Shown here piece after piece: positions 3,215-48,104 of a stretch of 56,808 nucleotides of DNA. Made by a program: the position numbers and the translations under genes. Numbering within the stretch: position 1 is the stretch's first letter; each line of letters begins with the position of its first letter. Below the pieces are notes generated by a model, which searched no databases, had not been told where the DNA came from, and was given only the letters and a program-made list of their open reading frames with translations. This stretch comes from a virus (taxonomy: Duplodnaviria; Caudoviricetes): positions 1 through 56,808 of the IMG/VR virus record IMGVR_UViG_3300039916_000013, one strand, 5' to 3'.

Positions 3215-3782
3215 GGGTCAGCTGCGGAAACCTCGCGAGATATGCATCAAGCGCCTTTCCCTGAATTGGAAGCTGCGGATATGAGCACTCCACCAAGCTA
3301 GCGGAATGGACGTCTAGCACACCTATCTCACCGCCACTGACAGTCATATAACGTGTTACTTTACTCGTATCCCAAGTAAAAACGACAGCATCTCCACCGT
3401 GCGAGAAAATTTGAGGAGGTGGGATATCGTACAGATTGAGGTACCCGAGGATCTGCTCCGCCTCTTCTTTCGTCTCAGAATCGATGGCTTGATCAGATCC
3501 ATCCGGCAGGGACGCCATTCGAGCGATTACACTATAAACGTTGAAGAACTGAGCAGCATGCAAGGCAGCAGTTCCGAGTGACGACGATAGTGATCTAAGA
3601 GGTATGTAATACTGCGTGTCTACAACATCGCTTTCCGACTCACGAACTGAGGCATCAGTTTCATGGATCCACCTTGATCTAGGCGGGGGCGCTGTGCTGA
3701 TGCCGCCTGAACTTGAAAGCAGATGGGGTCGGTCGATTACAGTGGAGACTGATGTTCCGTCCAGTAGAACGTATGATTTCAC
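3192..3782 (-). CDS. Hypothetical protein, possible antitoxin-like middle gene
   Basis: Low-complexity Ser/Pro N-terminus, then PPPQIFSHGGDAVVFTW domain; overlaps both neighbours. Confidence 0.65.
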   Translation of the reverse strand: MKSYVLLDGTSVSTVIDRPHLLSSSGGISTAPPPRSRWIHETDASVRESESDVVDTQYYIPLRSLSSSLGTAALHAAQFFNVYSVIARMASLPDGSDQAIDSETKEEAEQILGYLNLYDIPPPQIFSHGGDAVVFTWDTSKVTRYMTVSGGEIGVLDVHSASLVECSYPQLPIQGKALDAYLARFPQLTRETHAAG

Positions 3783-7463: not shown

Positions 7464-8195
7464 TCAGAGCTTGGATTGGACCATGGCGCGCATCTGGTCG
7501 CCGATCGCGGCCGCGCCCTGGATCGATGCGTCGAAAGGCAGTCGAGCGATGTCCCATTTGCCTTTCTGCTTGATGCCGAGGTTCGTTTGCACCTCGGCAT
7601 GGCTGAGAACTGTCTTGCGGCTGACCTGGATGCCGTAGCGCTTGCAGAGCTGCGCCAAGACGTTTGCCAGTTCATCCCATTGGACGCGCGTGATAGGTTG
7701 CTTGCCGGCACTGAATGGGATCTCAACGGCGTCGGCCATGCCGCAAAGCGACACGCCGATAAAACCAGTGTTGCAGTTCAGCGTGTGCTGCGCATAGCCA
7801 GTCTTCGATTTCGGGAGGCTGTTGAGGTCGATCGAAGGAACGCCGCGGACGTGTTTGCCATCGTTCTCGATCAGGACGTGGTAGTGAGAACGATCGAGGT
7901 CACTGGCTTTGTTCTGTCCGGCAGTCCAGTGGAATACGATGCCGATGATCTTGGCATCAGGCATCCACGCGGAAGGGACCAGGTTCTCCCTCGTGTCGAT
8001 CGAGGTCGTCGGGACCGGTGGTGGCAGCGAGGTTGGAGGCGTGGCAGCAAGACTGCGCAGCTTCTCCAGCTCATCGAGCGCCGAATTTAAGGCGTCGTCA
8101 GCCTCTTTGCCGTAATCGCCGTCGGCGCCGTACTTCGGTAGCGAGAAGCCAAGCATGAGCAAGCGCTTCTGCGTTTTCTGCAGAGACGAGTTCAT
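7464..8195 (-). CDS. Endolysin, N-acetylmuramoyl-L-alanine amidase with N-terminal peptidoglycan-binding domain
   Basis: QKRL..LG....GADGDYG binding motif; amidase motifs FHWTAG, HYHVLI, NTGFIGVSL, LSHAEV; AAGGA RBS before ATG 8195. Confidence 0.9.
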   Translation of the reverse strand: MNSSLQKTQKRLLMLGFSLPKYGADGDYGKEADDALNSALDELEKLRSLAATPPTSLPPPVPTTSIDTRENLVPSAWMPDAKIIGIVFHWTAGQNKASDLDRSHYHVLIENDGKHVRGVPSIDLNSLPKSKTGYAQHTLNCNTGFIGVSLCGMADAVEIPFSAGKQPITRVQWDELANVLAQLCKRYGIQVSRKTVLSHAEVQTNLGIKQKGKWDIARLPFDASIQGAAAIGDQMRAMVQSKL

Positions 8196-8323
8196 ATCGA
8201 TTTCCTTGAAATGCCCCGTTTCAGAACAGGGGCTGTGGATGTTTACGAAGCGTTGAGGCTGGGGACGCTCATTCTTGGAAGGCGGCGCCATGCAGTGCTT
8301 TGATCGACGGATAGGAGGATCAG

Positions 8324-8410
8324 ATGCGGAACCTGTCCACACTGTTCGCGATCGTCGCGGCCGTTGCTGCAGTGCTCTATGTCGCTGCAGTTTTCATGAG
8401 TTACTGGTGA
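8324..8410 (+). CDS. 28-aa hydrophobic micro-protein
   Basis: AGGAGG RBS; MRNLSTLFAIVAAVAAVLYVAAVFMSYW (single TM); below ORF-track cutoff. Confidence 0.6.
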   Translation: MRNLSTLFAIVAAVAAVLYVAAVFMSYW

Positions 8411-8970
8411 GACAAAAACGCCAGTTGGCTTTGATAGAGCTTCAGTCTATCTACGCTCGCCATCGGATTTCATTCGGGCTGGCGGCCAGAGGTCTAGCGT
8501 AGCGGACCGCACCTTCAAGTGCGCGCTAGACTTCTGTGCCAGGCTAGATCTGGCATATGGCAAATCAAGCGACCGACCGTTACCCTCAGGGTGCCGTGGT
8601 GTTCCCCCAAGTTTGCTTGCCACGGTAGAGGCTCGGCGTTTGGGTGGTCCTTCCCTTCGACTAGCGCTGGGCCTCACTTTTTGTCAGTAAACTTCAACAG
8701 TTGCCATAACACCACTCGGCTGCTTACTAGGCCGCAACTACTTCCGAGGGACGGGGGTAGTTCTGGAGAGCCGACTGCGCCGCCGCAACGTCGGCTCTCC
8801 TTCAAATCATCACAACTAGCGAATCAGTCTCGCGCTCGCTACGTTTTCTGCGTCGCGGCAAGTTCGACAGTTGCTGCGGCAGAGGCTCGGCGTTGGGTCT
8901 CCAATTCCCTACAGTTGCGCCGAGCCTCACTTGTCATCAGTAAAGATACGTAGTTGTGGCGACATTCCAA

Positions 8971-8985
8971 GAACATTTAAAGAAC
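8971..8985 (+). promoter_or_regulatory. Alpha-type LexA (SOS) box
   Basis: Perfect GAAC-atttaaa-GAAC, 4 nt before element B2. Confidence 0.75.
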
Positions 8986-9211
8986 GATTAACTACTTCGC
9001 GGGACGGGGTAGTTTCGGAGAGCCGACTGAGCCGCCGCGAAGGTCGGCTCTCCATCAAAACTTGGCTCCACCTGTTGCCGTCGATCGGCCAAGTGCCAGC
9101 AATGGTCCGGCACCGTACTGATACCCATCAATCTCGAACTATTGCCGCCCTACCTATCGACTTGCCTACTCGCAGCTGTTCAAACACGGCAAAGATGCGA
9201 AAGGCTGACCG

Positions 9212-9337
9212 ATGGCATATGAATGGGATAGTGCAAAGGTCCGCAAAGCCTACAGAATAAAGATGGCCGTAGCCTGTCTGGCAGCGTTGATCATGGCCGC
9301 GATCCCTCTAGGCCTGATCTTTATCAGCCTAGATTGA
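9212..9337 (+). CDS. 41-aa small membrane protein
   Basis: MAYEWDSAKVRKAYRIKMAVACLAALIMAAIPLGLIFISLD: basic N-terminus plus TM. Confidence 0.55.
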   Translation: MAYEWDSAKVRKAYRIKMAVACLAALIMAAIPLGLIFISLD

Positions 9338-9561
9338 GGCCGCGGCGATACCCGCTGGCGAATCACTTCCGCCCGGGATTTTTTCTGATGCGTCGAGGTG
9401 GTGCCTTGTCACTACAGCGGCAGAGGCTCGGCGTTCGGTTCTAGCTCCCCTACAATTGCCGCCGAGCCTCACACTCCACTGCAGTGCGTGCGAACGGTGG
9501 TCATTGTGGTCTCCGATGTTTAGGGGAATTTCGATCAGGTCGAGACGACGGGCACGAAGAG

Positions 9562-9587
9562 AAAAGGCCCCCGTAAAAGAGGCCTCT
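9562..9587 (-). terminator. Intrinsic terminator after the RTX-like gene
   Basis: Minus strand AGGCCTC-ttttac-GGGGGCCT followed by T-rich tail. Confidence 0.7.
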
Positions 9588-9624
9588 GCATGTGTGTGAG
9601 GAGCTGTGCGCCGAAGGTACGTTG

Positions 9625-10764
9625 CTAGAAGAGGAAGTCGCCTTTGCTAAACGCTAGCGGATCGTCAAAGTGGATCGCGAAATCGATCTTCTTGTCACCG
9701 TTGAGATCGCCATACACGTAGCTGTCCGACGCGTGTTTCTCGTAGCGAAGCTCGCCGGCTTTCCCGGTGAAGTTCTTCGAGCCGATGAAGTTGAAGTCCT
9801 GGCTGCCGGCCAGCTTGGAGTTGGCATCGATCTGCGACAGATCGATTTTATCTCTCTGCGCTCTGCTGAAATCGAGAATGGTGTCGACGTTCGCACCCTT
9901 CGACTCCGACACGTTCTTGAACACGAACAGATCAGCGTCGGTCCCGCCCGTGAGGGTGTCCTTCCCCGCGCCGCCGATCAGCTTGTCTTTGCCGGCATAC
10001 CCGTAAAGCTTATCGTTCCCTGCGCCGCCGTCAATCTCGTCGGCACCACCAGCGCCTTTCAGTGTCTGGGAGGCCTTCGTGCCGACGATTTTATCGACGA
10101 CGTTGTTTACGTCGATAAGGAAAGCCCATGAGGTCGAGTTCCCGGCGGGGTCCCGAGCTTCGATGTTGATCGAGATGGCCTTCGCTGGTCCGAGCGTCTC
10201 GTAATCCAGAGGCTTGGCGACCACCAGTTTGTCGCCATCCACAGCAAAGTAGCCAGTATTGTCTGCCAGATGGAAACTGACTGGCATGCCTTCAGGGTCG
10301 GTCGCAGAGAGGGTTCCGACGACAGTTCCAATAGCAGTGTTTTCGTTGACTGAGGATCTGGAAAGCTGCGGAAAGGATGGCTCGAAATCGAATGACGGAG
10401 GCGTCCACGGGTCAATAACGGGTGGGACCCAAGGTTCAGAAACTACCGGCCTGTCGATCTCAATCGTTCGATCTAGAAACCTGAGGATCTCAACGTCTCC
10501 GCTGATCTGAATGCCATCCGGCATCCCTGGGCGCAGATCGCGGACCACGGCGCCAGACCCTATATAACTGTCGTAGGATGTTACGATCGTATAATCTGCA
10601 GCAAGACCGCTGAACACGAGAGTGTCGCGGCCGAATGAGCCATCGATTTTGTCGGCGCCCGACGAAGCGAAAATGACATCATCGCCTCCTTCCGCGAAGA
10701 TTGCGTCGGACTCTGAAGTCCCGTAAAATGTTTCTGCGCCAGCGGTCCCGAAATATGTAGCCAT
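9625..10764 (-). CDS. RTX-type Ca-binding protein with cadherin-like domain and serralysin-like C-terminus (probable type I secretion substrate)
   Basis: GGxGxD repeats (GAGGAD, GGAGND, GGAGKD); cadherin motifs VNEN, ATDPEG, LDYET; tail DTILDF...DKIDLSQIDAN...DFLF. Confidence 0.88.
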   Translation of the reverse strand: MATYFGTAGAETFYGTSESDAIFAEGGDDVIFASSGADKIDGSFGRDTLVFSGLAADYTIVTSYDSYIGSGAVVRDLRPGMPDGIQISGDVEILRFLDRTIEIDRPVVSEPWVPPVIDPWTPPSFDFEPSFPQLSRSSVNENTAIGTVVGTLSATDPEGMPVSFHLADNTGYFAVDGDKLVVAKPLDYETLGPAKAISINIEARDPAGNSTSWAFLIDVNNVVDKIVGTKASQTLKGAGGADEIDGGAGNDKLYGYAGKDKLIGGAGKDTLTGGTDADLFVFKNVSESKGANVDTILDFSRAQRDKIDLSQIDANSKLAGSQDFNFIGSKNFTGKAGELRYEKHASDSYVYGDLNGDKKIDFAIHFDDPLAFSKGDFLF

Positions 10765-46917: not shown

Positions 46918-47130
46918 ATGACACCTGATCGCTTCAACGAATGCCTTTACGTGAGACGTTGGACGCCTATCAATCTGGCGTCGGCGCTGCAATGCGATCT
47001 GTCTTTGATCAAGGCGCCGGAAATCGGACGCGAGGCTAGTCCGTTAGGCCTCGCGGCTTGGTTGGAGGTGTTGGCGATAGTGCATGGAACTGCGCCACTG
47101 CCTCAGGCGTACCGAGGCAAGCATGTCTAA
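46918..47130 (+). CDS. Small HTH-like protein (possibly degenerate)
   Basis: MTPDRF..CL....W....LA..L.C pattern; 2 nt after cI stop. Confidence 0.55.
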   Translation: MTPDRFNECLYVRRWTPINLASALQCDLSLIKAPEIGREASPLGLAAWLEVLAIVHGTAPLPQAYRGKHV

Positions 47131-47189
47131 TTGGCACTAAACCGGCCACCCTATTATCGTTCAAAATCATGATCTTGAGGAGGATCTTC

Positions 47190-48104
47190 ATGGCTCTACC
47201 GGCCACCCAACGGCAAATGAAATTGGATCTTGGCGTCGAAGTTGAGAGCGACGTCGGTGGGATCGAGATGGGCGTATTGGACAACGGCATGGCGTATCTG
47301 ACGCAGAGAGGTCTGTCCTCTATGGCGGGGGCCGCTCGTTCAACCATCCAAGAGATATCGAAAGAATGGGAGGAGAATTTCGGGACCGGCATGGAGCCGC
47401 CTGGTCGAGTCCGTTGGTTCTCCGATTATTTGCGTGAGTCGGGATATGACTACCCAACGCTGTACATGGAGATTGAACGCAACGGCTCTCCGCATTATGC
47501 TTACTCGGATGCTGTTTGCATGGCATTCATCGAGTACTACGCATTTGAAGCTCAGCGCAAGAACGATGCGGCGATGGCAAACTACCGACGCCTGGCTCGG
47601 TACGGCCTTAACAAGTTCATCTACGATGCACTCGGCTACAAGCCGATCGACAAGTGGAAGTATTTCAATGACCGCGTCTCGCTTCTGAACGACGCCGCAC
47701 CCGAAGGCCACTTCATCGTCTTCAGCGAAACGAACGGCCTGATAGTCGACCTCATCAACGCCGGCCTCCCGATCAGTGATAAGACGATTCCCGATGGGAG
47801 CGTCGGCGGCGTATGGGGAAGGCATTGGACGGACAAAAAGCTTTCGGAGAATTTTGGTGAGCGAAAGCCATATGCCCACTATTACCCCGCCTACTATCCA
47901 CAGGCAAAGAGCAACCCGCAACAAGCTTGGGCGTATCCTGAGGACGCCCTTGTCGAGTTCCGTAGATGGTTTAGAAACTTCTATCTCCCCACGAAATACC
48001 CTGAGTACATTCTCAGGAAAGCGAAGCTTCTGGCGGGAGGGAAGGACCAGGCCAAAGAGATTGCTAGTTTGTATGAGCCGAAAAAGCTTCCCGAAAAAAA
48101 GTGA
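47190..48104 (+). CDS. bstA: BstA-like phage-defence (abortive infection) protein
   Basis: 304 aa; motifs GIEMGVL.NG..YLT.RGL, EYYAF, PD.SVG..W, HYYP.YYPQA.SNPQ, YPE.AL.EFR.W match my recollection of BstA; located downstream of cI. Confidence 0.8.
   Translation: MALPATQRQMKLDLGVEVESDVGGIEMGVLDNGMAYLTQRGLSSMAGAARSTIQEISKEWEENFGTGMEPPGRVRWFSDYLRESGYDYPTLYMEIERNGSPHYAYSDAVCMAFIEYYAFEAQRKNDAAMANYRRLARYGLNKFIYDALGYKPIDKWKYFNDRVSLLNDAAPEGHFIVFSETNGLIVDLINAGLPISDKTIPDGSVGGVWGRHWTDKKLSENFGERKPYAHYYPAYYPQAKSNPQQAWAYPEDALVEFRRWFRNFYLPTKYPEYILRKAKLLAGGKDQAKEIASLYEPKKLPEKK

What the first reader, a model, noticed from the sequence alone, without database searches (positions are those of the whole stretch)
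8324..9470. Non-coding island of periodically repeated RNA hairpins: candidate prophage multi-sRNA / micro-peptide module
Seen: the 1.4-kb gap between endolysin and the RTX gene has no credible long CDS, but holds two element types in the order A-B-A-B-(micro-ORF)-A. A1 to A2 and B1 to B2 are both exactly 254 nt. A is a GAGGCTCGGCG stem with variable loops carrying pyrimidine tracts (CCTTCCCTT, CTCC..TTCCCT, CTCCCCT). B is a GGGA-loop hairpin plus a GGAGAGCCGAC hairpin with GCCGCCGC in the loop. Stems are conserved while spacers have diverged, and stem variants form G-U pairs only on the + strand, antisense to the late operon. A further long + strand hairpin lies at 8487-8536. Inference: selection on RNA structure, so a duplicated sRNA cassette (anti-Shine-Dalgarno sRNAs, a protein sponge, or antitoxin RNAs for the adjacent hydrophobic peptides). 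I cannot assign it to a named family.
Basis: partly seen in the sequence, partly recalled or inferred. Interest (0 to 1): 0.85.

Follow-up and report, generated by a model that had tools for sequence, protein, structure and literature searches.

The report
Tandem two-hairpin RNA units in prophage
The gap between a prophage's endolysin gene and its tail-fibre region holds two tiny membrane-protein genes and three copies of a two-hairpin, small-RNA-like unit that also occurs with ordinary terminator tails in Phyllobacterium genomes; what it does is untested.

Summary
They fold better on the + strand, and G-U pairs lie almost only there. The island recurs in related prophage and metagenome loci.

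The reading needs reshaping. Both micro-ORFs are conserved genes: 28 aa at 8324-8410 and 41 aa at 9212-9337. Each A hairpin is the second half of a two-hairpin unit, P2-A.

A covariance model of that unit hits the window three times, strongly only on the + strand. It also hits 20 of 31 Phyllobacterium genomes, often in tandem and mostly followed by U runs. Both helices covary. No Rfam family matches.

I read the island as four tandem + strand units:
- the ORF28 mRNA;
- an ORF-less RNA (B0-P2-A1 plus a U run);
- an ORF-less RNA (G1-B1-P2-A2);
- the ORF41 mRNA (G2-B2-ORF41-P2-A3).

The 254-nt period is a duplicated block of terminator, promoter and 5' hairpins.

The closest analogue is the cuckoo/CcsR/ar14 small RNAs, but the defining CCUCCUCCC motif is absent. 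Promoters, transcript ends, targets and peptide function are inferred only; no RNA data were available. This is a new variant of a known kind, of moderate interest.

The parts
8324..8410 (+). ORF28: a 28-aa single-helix hydrophobic peptide (MRNLSTLFAIVAAVAAVLYVAAVFMSYW) with a GGAGGA Shine-Dalgarno 5 nt upstream
   Evidence: There are 8 distinct 28-aa relatives, all with GGAGG upstream and all ending in [YH]W. No Pfam or NCBIfam family matched.
8425..8452 (+). Promoter-like TTGGCT-N16-CTATCT upstream of B0 (inferred start of ORF-less RNA 1)
   Evidence: The hexamers are identical and the spacer differs in the window, L125 and L123. The comparison with the alpha-proteobacterial consensus is recalled, not tested. 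The E. coli-type scan found nothing.
8487..8536 (+). B0: a B-type hairpin with the GCGGACC internal-loop motif and an inner stem
   Evidence: Across 6 loci, 7 of 16 pairs have changes on both sides.
8590..8627 (+). P2 hairpin of unit 1 (GGTGCCGTGG...CCACGGTA; C-rich loop)
8628..8684 (+). A1 hairpin (8628-8675) plus its CACTTTTTG tail: terminator-like 3' end of unit 1
   Evidence: R1 scores 70.1 bits over 8585-8683.
8701..8729 (+). Promoter-like TTGCCA-N17-TTACTA, 6 nt before the G1 hairpin
   Evidence: The same layout lies before every G hairpin in the window, L113, L125 and L123. This is inference.
8736..8762 (+). G1: a hairpin with a GAGGGAC loop and two U-G pairs, putative 5'-terminal stem-loop of ORF-less RNA 2
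8765..8800 (+). B1 (B') hairpin GGAGAGCCGAC/GTCGGCTCTCC with a GCCGCCGC loop
8816..8826 (+). Conserved box CTAGCGAATCA in the linker, with a second copy at 9355-9365 (CTGGCGAATCA)
   Evidence: (D8).
8850..8881 (+). P2 hairpin of unit 2
8882..8928 (+). A2 hairpin
   Evidence: R1 scores 75.9 bits over 8844-8936.
8954..8982 (+). Promoter-like TTGTGG-N17-TTAAAG, 7 nt before G2
   Evidence: The layout compares as for 8701-8729. This is inference.
8990..9053 (+). G2 hairpin (8990-9014) and B2 hairpin (9017-9053): putative 5' end of the ORF41 mRNA
9212..9337 (+). ORF41: a 41-aa protein with a charged N-terminus and a C-terminal membrane helix (MAYEWDSAKVRKAYRIKMAVACLAALIMAAIPLGLIFISLD)
   Evidence: There are 8 distinct relatives in L101 (two), L104, L109, L113, L123 and L125. 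One 95%-identical protein is in the protein collection.
9392..9470 (+). P2 hairpin of unit 3 and the A3 hairpin (9423-9470), at the junction with the minus-strand tail-fibre/RTX block
   Evidence: R1 scores 55.4 bits over 9384-9478.

Best explanation
The 1.4-kb gap is a moron-type island read on the + strand, away from the endolysin gene. It consists of four tandem small transcription units:
- (1) the ORF28 mRNA;
- (2) an ORF-less RNA of about 220 nt, made of B0, a small hairpin, P2 and A1 plus a U run;
- (3) an ORF-less RNA of about 195 nt, made of the G1 5' hairpin, B1, a linker carrying the CTAGCGAATCA box, P2 and A2;
- (4) the ORF41 mRNA, with the same G2-B2 5' part and the same box-P2-A3 3' part.

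The 254-nt period is a duplication of the block 'A terminator, promoter, G-B' 5' hairpins'.

The recurrent P2-A pair belongs to an unnamed small-RNA-like family. A UGCY..RGCA hairpin with a C-rich loop is followed directly by a GGCUCGGCG..CGCCGAGCC hairpin with a large loop. In Phyllobacterium genomes most copies then carry a U run.

SHOWN:
- the hairpins, their strand and their covariation;
- conservation of the ORFs;
- family membership of P2-A;
- recurrence of the island beside related endolysins.

INFERRED:
- P2-A forms the 3' end of each unit, as a terminator and stabiliser;
- whether transcribed alone or cut out of the UTRs, it acts in trans through its pyrimidine-rich loops on ribosome-binding regions, as cuckoo/CcsR RNAs are thought to do;
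- the G hairpin protects the 5' ends;
- the two membrane micro-proteins are lysogen-expressed cargo.
For: Strand and structure:
- The 18 P2-A units sum to -717.1 kcal/mol on + against -635.4 on minus.

Covariation:
- B-type hairpin, 6 loci: 95.8% of cells paired against 86.2% in shuffles (0 of 500 reach it). Seven of 16 pairs change on both sides. Slid controls reach at most 57%.
- P2-A in 27 matches from Phyllobacterium loci: 10 of 15 pairs change on both sides, and 95.6% are paired against 85.2% (0 of 500). Slid controls reach at most 43%.

Family:
- Model R1 hits the window at 75.9, 70.1 and 55.4 bits on +, and only 13.5 and 11.7 bits on minus.
- It hits 20 of 31 Phyllobacterium genomes, 48 places in all, some clustered. 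Most carry TCTTTTTT-type tails.

Recurrence:
- A-type hairpins with the same loop occur in 5 of 7 viral pattern hits and 9 of 23 metagenome hits.
- Six of the 14 endolysin-anchored loci I examined carry an A-type or hybrid hairpin upstream of the endolysin.

3'-end position:
- A follows the stop of a 70-aa ORF by about 35 nt in L113.
- A lies 8-20 nt from the stop of the convergent gene in L006 and L007.
- Internal A copies are followed by CACTTTTT or CACTTTC, whereas terminal ones are not.

Selection on the non-coding parts (window against L125):
- ORF28 is 72% identical and ORF41 70%.
- P2 of unit 1 is 89%, A1 86%, G1 92%, B1 86% and A3 82%.

Promoter-like hexamers are conserved while their spacers vary. 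Pyrimidines fill 66% of the unpaired hairpin positions.

A related phage, L096, has the endolysin directly next to the convergent gene, with no island. This fits an inserted island.
Against: - There is no transcript evidence at all. No RNA run holds the stretch, so starts, ends and even expression are unshown.
- The promoter readings rest on a recalled alpha-proteobacterial consensus. The sigma-70 and terminator scans found 0 sites.
- A2 and A3 lack a U run, and 25-nt loops are unusual for intrinsic terminators.
- The A stem is invariant in the 13 prophage copies, so its covariation comes only from the Phyllobacterium copies.
- Alignment A5 was fitted to the model, which biases its pair counts. 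It also includes weak matches.
- Four of the seven double changes in the B-type helix come from two related rows, so they amount to one event.
- No target was found inside the phage.
- The host genus is not established. In 31 Phyllobacterium genomes, ORF41 was found in 0 and the endolysin in 1, at 55% identity.
- GC content does not differ from the flanks.
Confidence: 0.5

Rival explanations
1. The hairpins are only transcript-end and insulator elements. They act as terminators or 3' stabilisers for the two micro-protein genes, shielding the tail-fibre operon from antisense read-through. The ORF-less copies are leftovers of lost cassettes and have no trans-acting role.
For: A sits at the convergent junction in every single-copy locus. 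Phyllobacterium copies carry U runs. L125 has the same island without unit 3. Some copies decay: L125's A1-like copy folds at only -14.3 kcal/mol, and L123's A-like copy has a mismatch.
Against: Loop sequence and the box are conserved beyond what a terminator needs. Non-coding modules are more conserved than the ORFs. Stand-alone copies lie in long intergenic regions, for example L135. A1 keeps its pairing through G-U pairs rather than decaying.
Confidence: 0.25
2. The island is a type I toxin-antitoxin-like module. ORF28 and/or ORF41 would be membrane toxins held in check by RNA structure or by an RNA antitoxin. The ORF-less paralogue of the ORF41 mRNA would act as a decoy or competitor. The role might lie in lysis timing or phage exclusion.
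For: The peptides are small and hydrophobic with strong ribosome-binding sites. ORF41 has a long structured 5' leader. The loci are tandemly repeated. A second, unrelated amidase gene in a Phyllobacterium genome (L172) faces a similar array that includes a 25-aa hydrophobic ORF. A type I system in a prophage that aids phage release is in print (PMC8621323; abstract and passages read).
Against: No antisense or extended complementary RNA was found. The best inverted matches to the ORF regions are 12-16 nt at 75-92%. The ORF-less RNA shares sequence with the ORF41 mRNA rather than complementing it. Toxicity is untested. Neither peptide matched a family.
Confidence: 0.12
3. The repeated hairpins bind a protein. 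They would work as a sponge or assembly site through the GGAC motifs in the G loops and B-type internal loops, or through the invariant A stem, rather than by base-pairing.
For: The A stem keeps its sequence and does not covary in 13 prophage copies. The motif G[CU]GGA[CU] recurs in B-type internal loops, and GGGAC or GAGGAC in the G loops.
Against: There are only about three GGA-type sites in the island. The A stem does covary in the Phyllobacterium copies. No candidate binding protein was identified.
Confidence: 0.06
4. The elements act as DNA, for example as ends of a mobile cassette, recombination boundary sequences, or single-strand hairpins recognised by a transposase or recombinase. Alternatively, they act on the minus strand as a leader or antitermination signal for the lysis genes.
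For: The island is mosaic: modules are shuffled between phages and L098 carries a hybrid hairpin. The A hairpin abuts a truncated minus-strand ORF at different codons in the window, L098 and L113. The island lies upstream of the endolysin on the minus strand.
Against: G-U asymmetry excludes the minus strand and duplex DNA as the selected form. No transposase or recombinase gene lies beside the prophage islands. U-run tails in the Phyllobacterium copies point to RNA 3' ends.
Confidence: 0.05

Closest known systems
Cuckoo / CcsR small RNAs (Rfam ar14, NfeR1) of Alphaproteobacteria
   Same: Each unit has two hairpins with pyrimidine-rich loops. Several homologous copies lie in tandem next to a small ORF, in its 3' or 5' UTR. 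The families named include 'Phylobacteraceae' (the paper's spelling) and Rhizobiaceae, and copies are duplicated and reshuffled (PMC8034643; passages read).
   Different: The defining CCUCCUCCC motif is absent: 0 occurrences in 8197-9624, and CCTCC also 0. No Rfam family, ar14 included, matched at E up to 10. The neighbouring ORFs are hydrophobic membrane peptides, not DUF1127 proteins (no Pfam family). The location is a prophage, beside the endolysin.
   Same: Small lysogen-type genes lie between late-gene modules that are adjacent in a relative (L096). They are oppositely oriented to the late genes, with terminator-like hairpins.
   Different: Here two of the four units carry no ORF, and the RNA modules are as conserved as the cargo or more so. 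There is no composition shift. Promoters and terminators are not shown.
Type I toxin-antitoxin loci in tandem repeats (hok/sok; ldr/rdl 'LDR'; ibs/sib); hokW-sokW in prophage Sp5
   Same: Short hydrophobic peptides, highly structured RNAs and tandem repeat units, in a prophage setting (PMC8621323 abstract; the other examples are recalled).
   Different: No antisense or complementary RNA was found. Toxicity is untested. The repeated unit itself lacks an ORF.
Intergenic repeat families of rhizobia (RIME/REP-like palindromes); recalled
   Same: GC-rich palindromic hairpins recur in intergenic regions, with several copies per genome.
   Different: Copy number is low: 0-8 model matches per genome. 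The unit has a defined two-hairpin architecture with U-run tails and a strand preference. Both helices covary.

Membership tests
Cuckoo / CcsR / ar14 sRNAs | CCUCCUCCC anti-Shine-Dalgarno motif in each hairpin loop | tested here: not met
   0 occurrences of CCTCCTCCC or CCTCC in 8197-9624. The loops carry only shorter tracts such as CCUUCCCUU, UCUCC..UUCCCU and CUCCCCU.
Cuckoo / CcsR / ar14 sRNAs | Match to the Rfam covariance model | tested here: not met
   cmscan of 8100-9700 at E up to 10 gave two unrelated weak hits only. The whole window at gathering score gave only a tRNA.
Cuckoo / CcsR / ar14 sRNAs | Two hairpins per unit, tandem copies, adjacency to a small ORF (DUF1127 in the CIN1 subgroup) | tested here: inconclusive
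   The two-hairpin tandem units are present. The adjacent ORFs have no DUF1127 or any other Pfam match.
Unnamed P2-A two-hairpin family (model R1, built here) | UGCY..RGCA hairpin directly followed by a GGCUCGGCG..CGCCGAGCC hairpin, on one strand | tested here: met
   There are three + strand hits at 55-76 bits and minus-strand hits at 14 bits or less. Two window copies were in the seed alignment; A3 was not, and scores 55.4 bits.
Unnamed P2-A two-hairpin family (model R1, built here) | U run after the second hairpin | tested here: inconclusive
   A1 is followed by CACTTTTTG, but A2 (CACTTGTCA) and A3 (CACACTCCA) are not. Most Phyllobacterium copies have the U run.
Type I toxin-antitoxin system | Small hydrophobic toxin peptide | tested here: inconclusive
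   The 28-aa and 41-aa membrane-type peptides are present and conserved. Toxicity cannot be tested with these tools.
Type I toxin-antitoxin system | Antisense or partly complementary RNA antitoxin | tested here: not met
   No complementarity between the ORF regions and the rest of the island exceeds 12-16 nt at 75-92%. A cis-antisense transcript cannot be excluded without RNA data.
Phage moron | Insertion between genes that are adjacent in related phages | tested here: met
   L096 (endolysin 91% identical) has no island. The content of the slot differs among the 14 loci examined.
Phage moron | Own promoter and terminator | tested here: inconclusive
   Hexamer pairs are conserved while their spacers vary, and A1 has a hairpin plus U run. 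The consensus scan found 0 sites, and there are no transcript data.
Intrinsic terminator | GC-rich hairpin with a short loop followed by a U tract | tested here: inconclusive
   The stems are GC-rich. The loops are 25-26 nt. A U tract follows A1 only, and the scan found 0 sites.

The most novel reading that the evidence does not exclude
P2-A would be a portable RNA 'end module' that travels with micro-peptide genes between phage lysis regions and bacterial chromosomes. In this reading, the ORF-less copies are regulatory paralogues of the peptide mRNAs. They share the same 5' (G-B') and 3' (box-P2-A) parts, so they would compete for the same RNase, chaperone or ribosome-binding partner. That competition would set the level of membrane-active peptides that tune lysis timing or superinfection exclusion. 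It would be RNA-decoy control of type I-like toxins, with no antisense pairing involved.
Probability: 0.12. Interest if true: 0.7.

Novelty: new variant of a known kind. Interest (0 to 1): 0.5.

Why it matters
If the units are transcribed as inferred, this is an undescribed small-RNA family of Phyllobacterium-type bacteria and their prophages. It is absent from Rfam, both helices covary, and it has a clear modular relation to micro-protein genes.

It would add a second example, beside cuckoo/CcsR, of tandem two-hairpin RNAs built into the UTRs of tiny ORFs in Alphaproteobacteria. It would place such RNAs next to a phage lysis cassette, where they could affect lysogen physiology or lysis.

It also flags two conserved micro-proteins that gene callers miss. 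Only one relative of ORF41 is in a 5.8-billion-protein collection.

Tried and rejected
**Database searches**
- Rfam found nothing relevant in the region, the whole window or six related loci.
- blastn of 8197-9624 against the phage and plasmid collections found no match.
- The exact B' stem pattern found 0 viral contigs.
- The A loop pattern added only two chance hits, both inside a coding sequence.
- Of the 79 genome-collection hits to the A stem, 0 carry the prophage-type loop. Most are chance matches in GC-rich genomes, or belong to a dispersed repeat of one Chloroflexia MAG.
- A family-wide scan with a 9+9-nt stem hit 33 of 301 genomes. About 12 genomes also hit the reversed control, so this is uninformative.

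**Target and pairing searches**
- RNAduplex scans of the window used the A loops, G loops, linker and 5' regions as queries. The only outlier was the A1 loop against 48029-48052, inside the CDS 47058-48104 (-37.4 kcal/mol, a 12-nt perfect core). I estimate the chance probability at about 0.1, so I reject it.
- A kissing interaction between the G loop (GGGA) and the A loop (UCCC) has no covariation. L125 changes its G loop to GAGGAC with no matching change in A.

**Readings by eye, all rejected**
- The CTAGCGAATCA box plus the GTAGCGT box as an ECF-type or sigma-70 promoter: the spacing is inconsistent, and the hexamers are poor.
- GTTGGGT in the A loop as an integron attC core: there is no inverse core and no integrase.

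**Expression**
- No RNA holder was listed for the stretch.

**Host**
- ORF41 was not found in 31 Phyllobacterium genomes.
- The endolysin was found in 1 of 31, at 55% identity, and in 0 of 5 other rhizobial genomes.
- The host genus is left open.

**Other**
- An amidase gene was seen in only 1 (L172) of the 27 held Phyllobacterium-type loci that I searched.
- I did not try complex prediction or structure prediction, because the peptides are too short to be informative.
Full report
**1. Setting**

The window is a complete IMG/VR provirus record of 56,808 bp. The finding lies between two minus-strand genes:
- an Amidase_2 endolysin at 7464-8195 (Pfam 7e-16; PHROG endolysin 1e-40). The longer GTG-started frame to 8342 is probably not used;
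- an RTX-repeat/cadherin-like gene at 9625-10764, which follows DUF4376-type tail-fibre genes.

No long ORF is credible between them.

**2. The observation**

- A copies lie at 8628-8675, 8882-8928 and 9423-9470.
- GGGA-loop hairpins ('G') lie at 8736-8762 and 8990-9014.
- GGAGAGCCGAC hairpins ('B'') lie at 8765-8800 and 9017-9053.
- A further hairpin lies at 8487-8536 ('B0').

The 254-nt spacing holds for A1/A2 and for the G starts. The B' hairpins are 252 nt apart.

The 197-nt stretch 8736-8932 folds at -90.6 kcal/mol on the + strand (z -5.5) and -84.5 on the minus strand (z -3.8).

The + strand is favoured in every hairpin class, taken over all distinct copies from all loci:

| Class | Energy, + | Energy, minus | G-U pairs, + | G-U pairs, minus |
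|---|---|---|---|---|
| G+B' | -180.2 | -146.4 | 18 | 3 |
| B-type | -175.0 | -154.9 | 10 | 3 |
| A | -130.9 | -107.5 | 15 | 2 |

It holds generally.

**3. Relatives**

*Negative searches.* Rfam gives nothing. blastn against the phage and plasmid collections gives nothing.

*Pattern scans.*
- The exact A-stem pattern found 7 viral contigs. Five of them also share the loop TTGGGTYY....TYCCCTACAGT.
- A related pattern found 23 metagenome stretches, 9 with that loop.

*Anchoring on the endolysin* gave 15 loci. I read the upstream region of 14 of them.
- Six carry an A-type or hybrid hairpin: L094, L095, L097, L098, L099 and L100.
- Eight do not: L093, L096, L101-L106.
- In L096 the endolysin directly meets the convergent gene.

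The island is therefore a variable insertion slot beside a conserved endolysin.

**4. The micro-ORFs are genes**

- ORF28 (8324-8410) has 8 distinct relatives. All are exactly 28 aa, have GGAGG 5-7 nt upstream, and end in [YH]W.
- ORF41 (9212-9337) has 8 distinct relatives of 36-42 aa. These include loci with no A or B hairpins (L101, L104).
- Neither matches Pfam or NCBIfam.
- Other loci carry different small + strand ORFs in the same slot: an acidic MMEDEN... ORF in L097 and L098, and a roughly 70-aa ORF in L093 and L113.

**5. Anatomy across loci**

Directly before every A hairpin lies a second hairpin, P2. Its 3' arm ends in ..GGCA or ..GGTA, and its sequence differs between lineages while pairing is kept:

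| 5' arm | 3' arm |
|---|---|
| GCCGTGG | CCACGGC |
| GCGGCAA | TTGCTGC |
| GTCACG | CGTGGC |
| CGCGAT | ATCGCG |

About 55 nt upstream lies a conserved box, CTAGCGAATCA.

B0 is the window's copy of a 'B-type' hairpin found in L095, L097, L098, L123 and L125.
- The outer stem differs between loci through paired changes, for example GAGGCCCGACAC/GTGTCGGGCCTC against GAGGCTCGACGC/GCGTCGAGCCTC against GAGGTCTAGCG/CGCTAGACTTC.
- The internal-loop motif G[CU]GGA[CU]C and a small inner stem persist.
- On six sequences, 95.8% of cells pair against 86.2% in shuffles (0 of 500 reach it). Seven of 16 pairs change on both sides, and slid controls reach at most 57%.
- Four of those seven changes come from two related rows (the window and L125). 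They amount to one event.

Island layouts in relatives:
- L125 has the window's island without the middle unit: ORF28-B0-P2-A1-G-B'-ORF41-box-P2-A.
- L113 has ORF70-P2-A-G-B'-ORF41-box-P2-A.
- L123 has two islands in tandem, separated by a remnant of an endolysin 5' end.

Between the window and L125, the non-coding modules are at least as conserved as the ORFs:

| Segment | Identity |
|---|---|
| ORF28 | 72% |
| ORF41 | 70% |
| P2 of unit 1 | 89% |
| A1 | 86% |
| G1 | 92% |
| B1 | 86% |
| A3 | 82% |

**6. A wider family**

The 11-bp A stem is invariant in 13 prophage copies. On that set alone it says nothing about structure.

The same stem, with other loops, occurs in Phyllobacterium genomes. 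There it is preceded by GTGCCAT..TGGCA[CT] and followed by T6-8.

I built a covariance model, R1, of P2-A from 7 such copies and 5 prophage copies.
- In the window it scores 75.9, 70.1 and 55.4 bits on the + strand. The minus strand reaches only 13.5 and 11.7 bits. A3 was not in the seed.
- It hits 20 of 31 Phyllobacterium genomes at E ≤ 0.001, 48 places in all, with up to 8 in one genome. Five of these genomes contributed seed sequences.
- Some hits are clustered within a few hundred bases.

I fetched ten regions and aligned 27 matches.
- Both helices covary. P2 appears as TGCCAT/ATGGCA, TGCCGC/GCGGCA, TGCTGG/CCAGCA or TGTTGT/GCAACA. A appears as GGCTCGGCG/CGCCGAGCC, GGCTTGGTC/GGCCAAGCC or GGCTCGACG/CGTCGAGCC.
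- Ten of 15 pairs change on both sides.
- 95.6% of cells pair against 85.2% in shuffles (0 of 500), and slid controls reach at most 43%.
- That alignment was fitted to the model and contains a few weak matches, so the counts lean towards the structure.
- Most strong matches end in TCTTTTTT-type tails.

Some copies stand alone in long intergenic regions (L135). Others form arrays.
- In L171 and L172, from one genome, several units alternate with other GCCTCAC-tailed hairpins and a 25-30-aa hydrophobic ORF (MGIALAVFLVF.., MGFALSIFLVF..).
- The L172 array begins about 300 nt from a divergently oriented Amidase_2 gene (PHROG amidase, 2e-56). IS110 and IS240-type transposase genes lie nearby.
- This amidase shows no tblastn similarity to the window's endolysin.

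**7. Interpretation**

Three features together make me read A, with P2, as the 3' end module of + strand transcripts:
- where A sits: after ORF stops, and at the junction with the convergent late genes;
- U-rich tails after internal copies only (A1, the A1-like copies of L125 and L123, the A2-like copy of L113);
- U runs in the Phyllobacterium copies.

Immediately after A1 and A2, and in L113, L123 and L125, lies a TTGNNN-N17-YTAMWR pair of hexamers. It sits 5-7 nt before the first base of the G hairpin. Before B0 lies TTGGCT-N16-CTATCT. Its hexamers are identical and its spacers differ in the window, L125 and L123.

That these resemble alpha-proteobacterial promoters is my recollection of the consensus, not a test. 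The E. coli-type scan found nothing.

On this reading the island holds four tandem units, and the 254-nt period is the duplicated block A-promoter-G-B'. Unit 3 (about 8736-8930) is an ORF-less paralogue of the ORF41 mRNA. The two copies share the G-B' part, part ways after B', and share sequence again at the box, P2 and A.

Unpaired positions of the two hairpins are 66% pyrimidine (238 of 359), against 51% C+T for the region. This is the only pointer to an anti-Shine-Dalgarno mode of action.

**8. Comparison with known systems**

The nearest described system is the cuckoo/CcsR/ar14 family. Its features are:
- two hairpins per RNA, each loop carrying CCUCCUCCC;
- several tandem copies;
- derivation from the 3' or 5' UTR of a small DUF1127 ORF;
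- presence in Rhizobiaceae, Brucellaceae, Rhodobacteraceae and 'Phylobacteraceae' (the paper's spelling);
- duplication onto plasmids.

(PMC8034643; passages read.)

Membership fails here. The motif is absent, no Rfam model matches, and the ORFs are not DUF1127. The resemblance is one of design, not of descent.

The other comparisons:
- The moron concept (recalled) fits the placement, but it does not explain ORF-less units that are better conserved than the cargo.
- Type I toxin-antitoxin loci share the small hydrophobic peptides, tandem repeats and prophage precedent (PMC8621323; abstract and passages). I found no complementary RNA.

**9. What remains open**

- Expression, transcript ends, targets, peptide function and the host are all open.
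- The host genus is not settled. The RNA family points to Phyllobacterium or a close relative. However, neither ORF41 (0 of 31) nor a close endolysin (1 of 31, at 55% identity) was found in the representative genomes.

**10. Verdict**

The functional reading is narrowed to a modular array of small transcription units built around an undescribed two-hairpin RNA family.

It is a new variant of a known kind. Interest is moderate, at 0.5, rather than the 0.85 first given, for two reasons: the design has a close analogue, and no function is shown.

Noticed in passing
L171:1400-2900 (minus) and L172:4000-5250 (plus), both from genome G327: These are Phyllobacterium arrays of P2-A units and other hairpins ending in GCCTCAC(T)n. 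Each includes a 25-30-aa hydrophobic ORF (MGIALAVFLVF.. / MGFALSIFLVF..). The L172 array faces an Amidase_2 gene (3321-3734, minus), and IS110 and IS240-type transposase genes lie within 3 kb.
   Followed up: partly
window 9480-9516 (minus strand): A strong GGAGACC Shine-Dalgarno and ATG open an 11-codon ORF (MTTVRTHCSGV) that runs into the A3 hairpin. L093, L098 and L113 have longer versions (MTTLRTSAAG.., MAARRTSAAGRKAIAQHEA..). These look like the 5' stub of a lost gene, cut at different codons where the island begins. My guess that the gene was a lysozyme is from recall only.
   Followed up: no
window 8205-8235: A hairpin, GCCCC..GGGGC, lies 15-20 nt upstream of the endolysin start. Its stem differs by paired changes in relatives (GCCAC/GTGGC in L099; GCCGC/GCGGC in L096 and L097). 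It could be a terminator or leader element on either strand.
   Followed up: no
window 9562-9592 (minus strand): GAGGCC..GGGGGCC followed by TTTTCTCTT lies directly after the RTX-repeat gene's stop. It looks like that gene's intrinsic terminator, so late transcription would need read-through or a separate promoter to reach the endolysin.
   Followed up: no
L098:2610-2654 (minus): A hybrid hairpin has an A-type stem (GAGGCTCGGCGC/GCGTCGAGCCTC, one G-U pair) around a B-type loop (GGCGGATCA..). L123 has the same hairpin with the G-U pair made A-U. The A and B-type stems are thus related or exchangeable.
   Followed up: partly
L123:2560-3160: Between two islands in tandem lies a remnant resembling the reverse complement of an endolysin 5' end. 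The ORF28 copy that follows has ATA in place of its start codon. This suggests recombination between two phages.
   Followed up: no
L014-L089 (contigs of one Chloroflexia MAG, and a Caldilineales MAG): The same 11-bp stem closes a dispersed repeat with AAGGRTCYC..GRGAYCCTT inner arms, on many contigs of these MAGs. The loops are unrelated to those of the prophage element.
   Followed up: no
window 48029-48052 (+), inside the ORF 47058-48104: A 12-nt perfect complement, extended by flanking pairs (-37.4 kcal/mol), to the A1 loop. I judge it chance.
   Followed up: partly
L101:2598-2917 and L104:2774-2902 (minus): ORF41-family genes stand upstream of more distant endolysins (67-68% identity) with no A or B hairpins. 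They share a conserved 5' leader (GTTGCAARGATGCACTCGACTCCCGGGC..).
   Followed up: no
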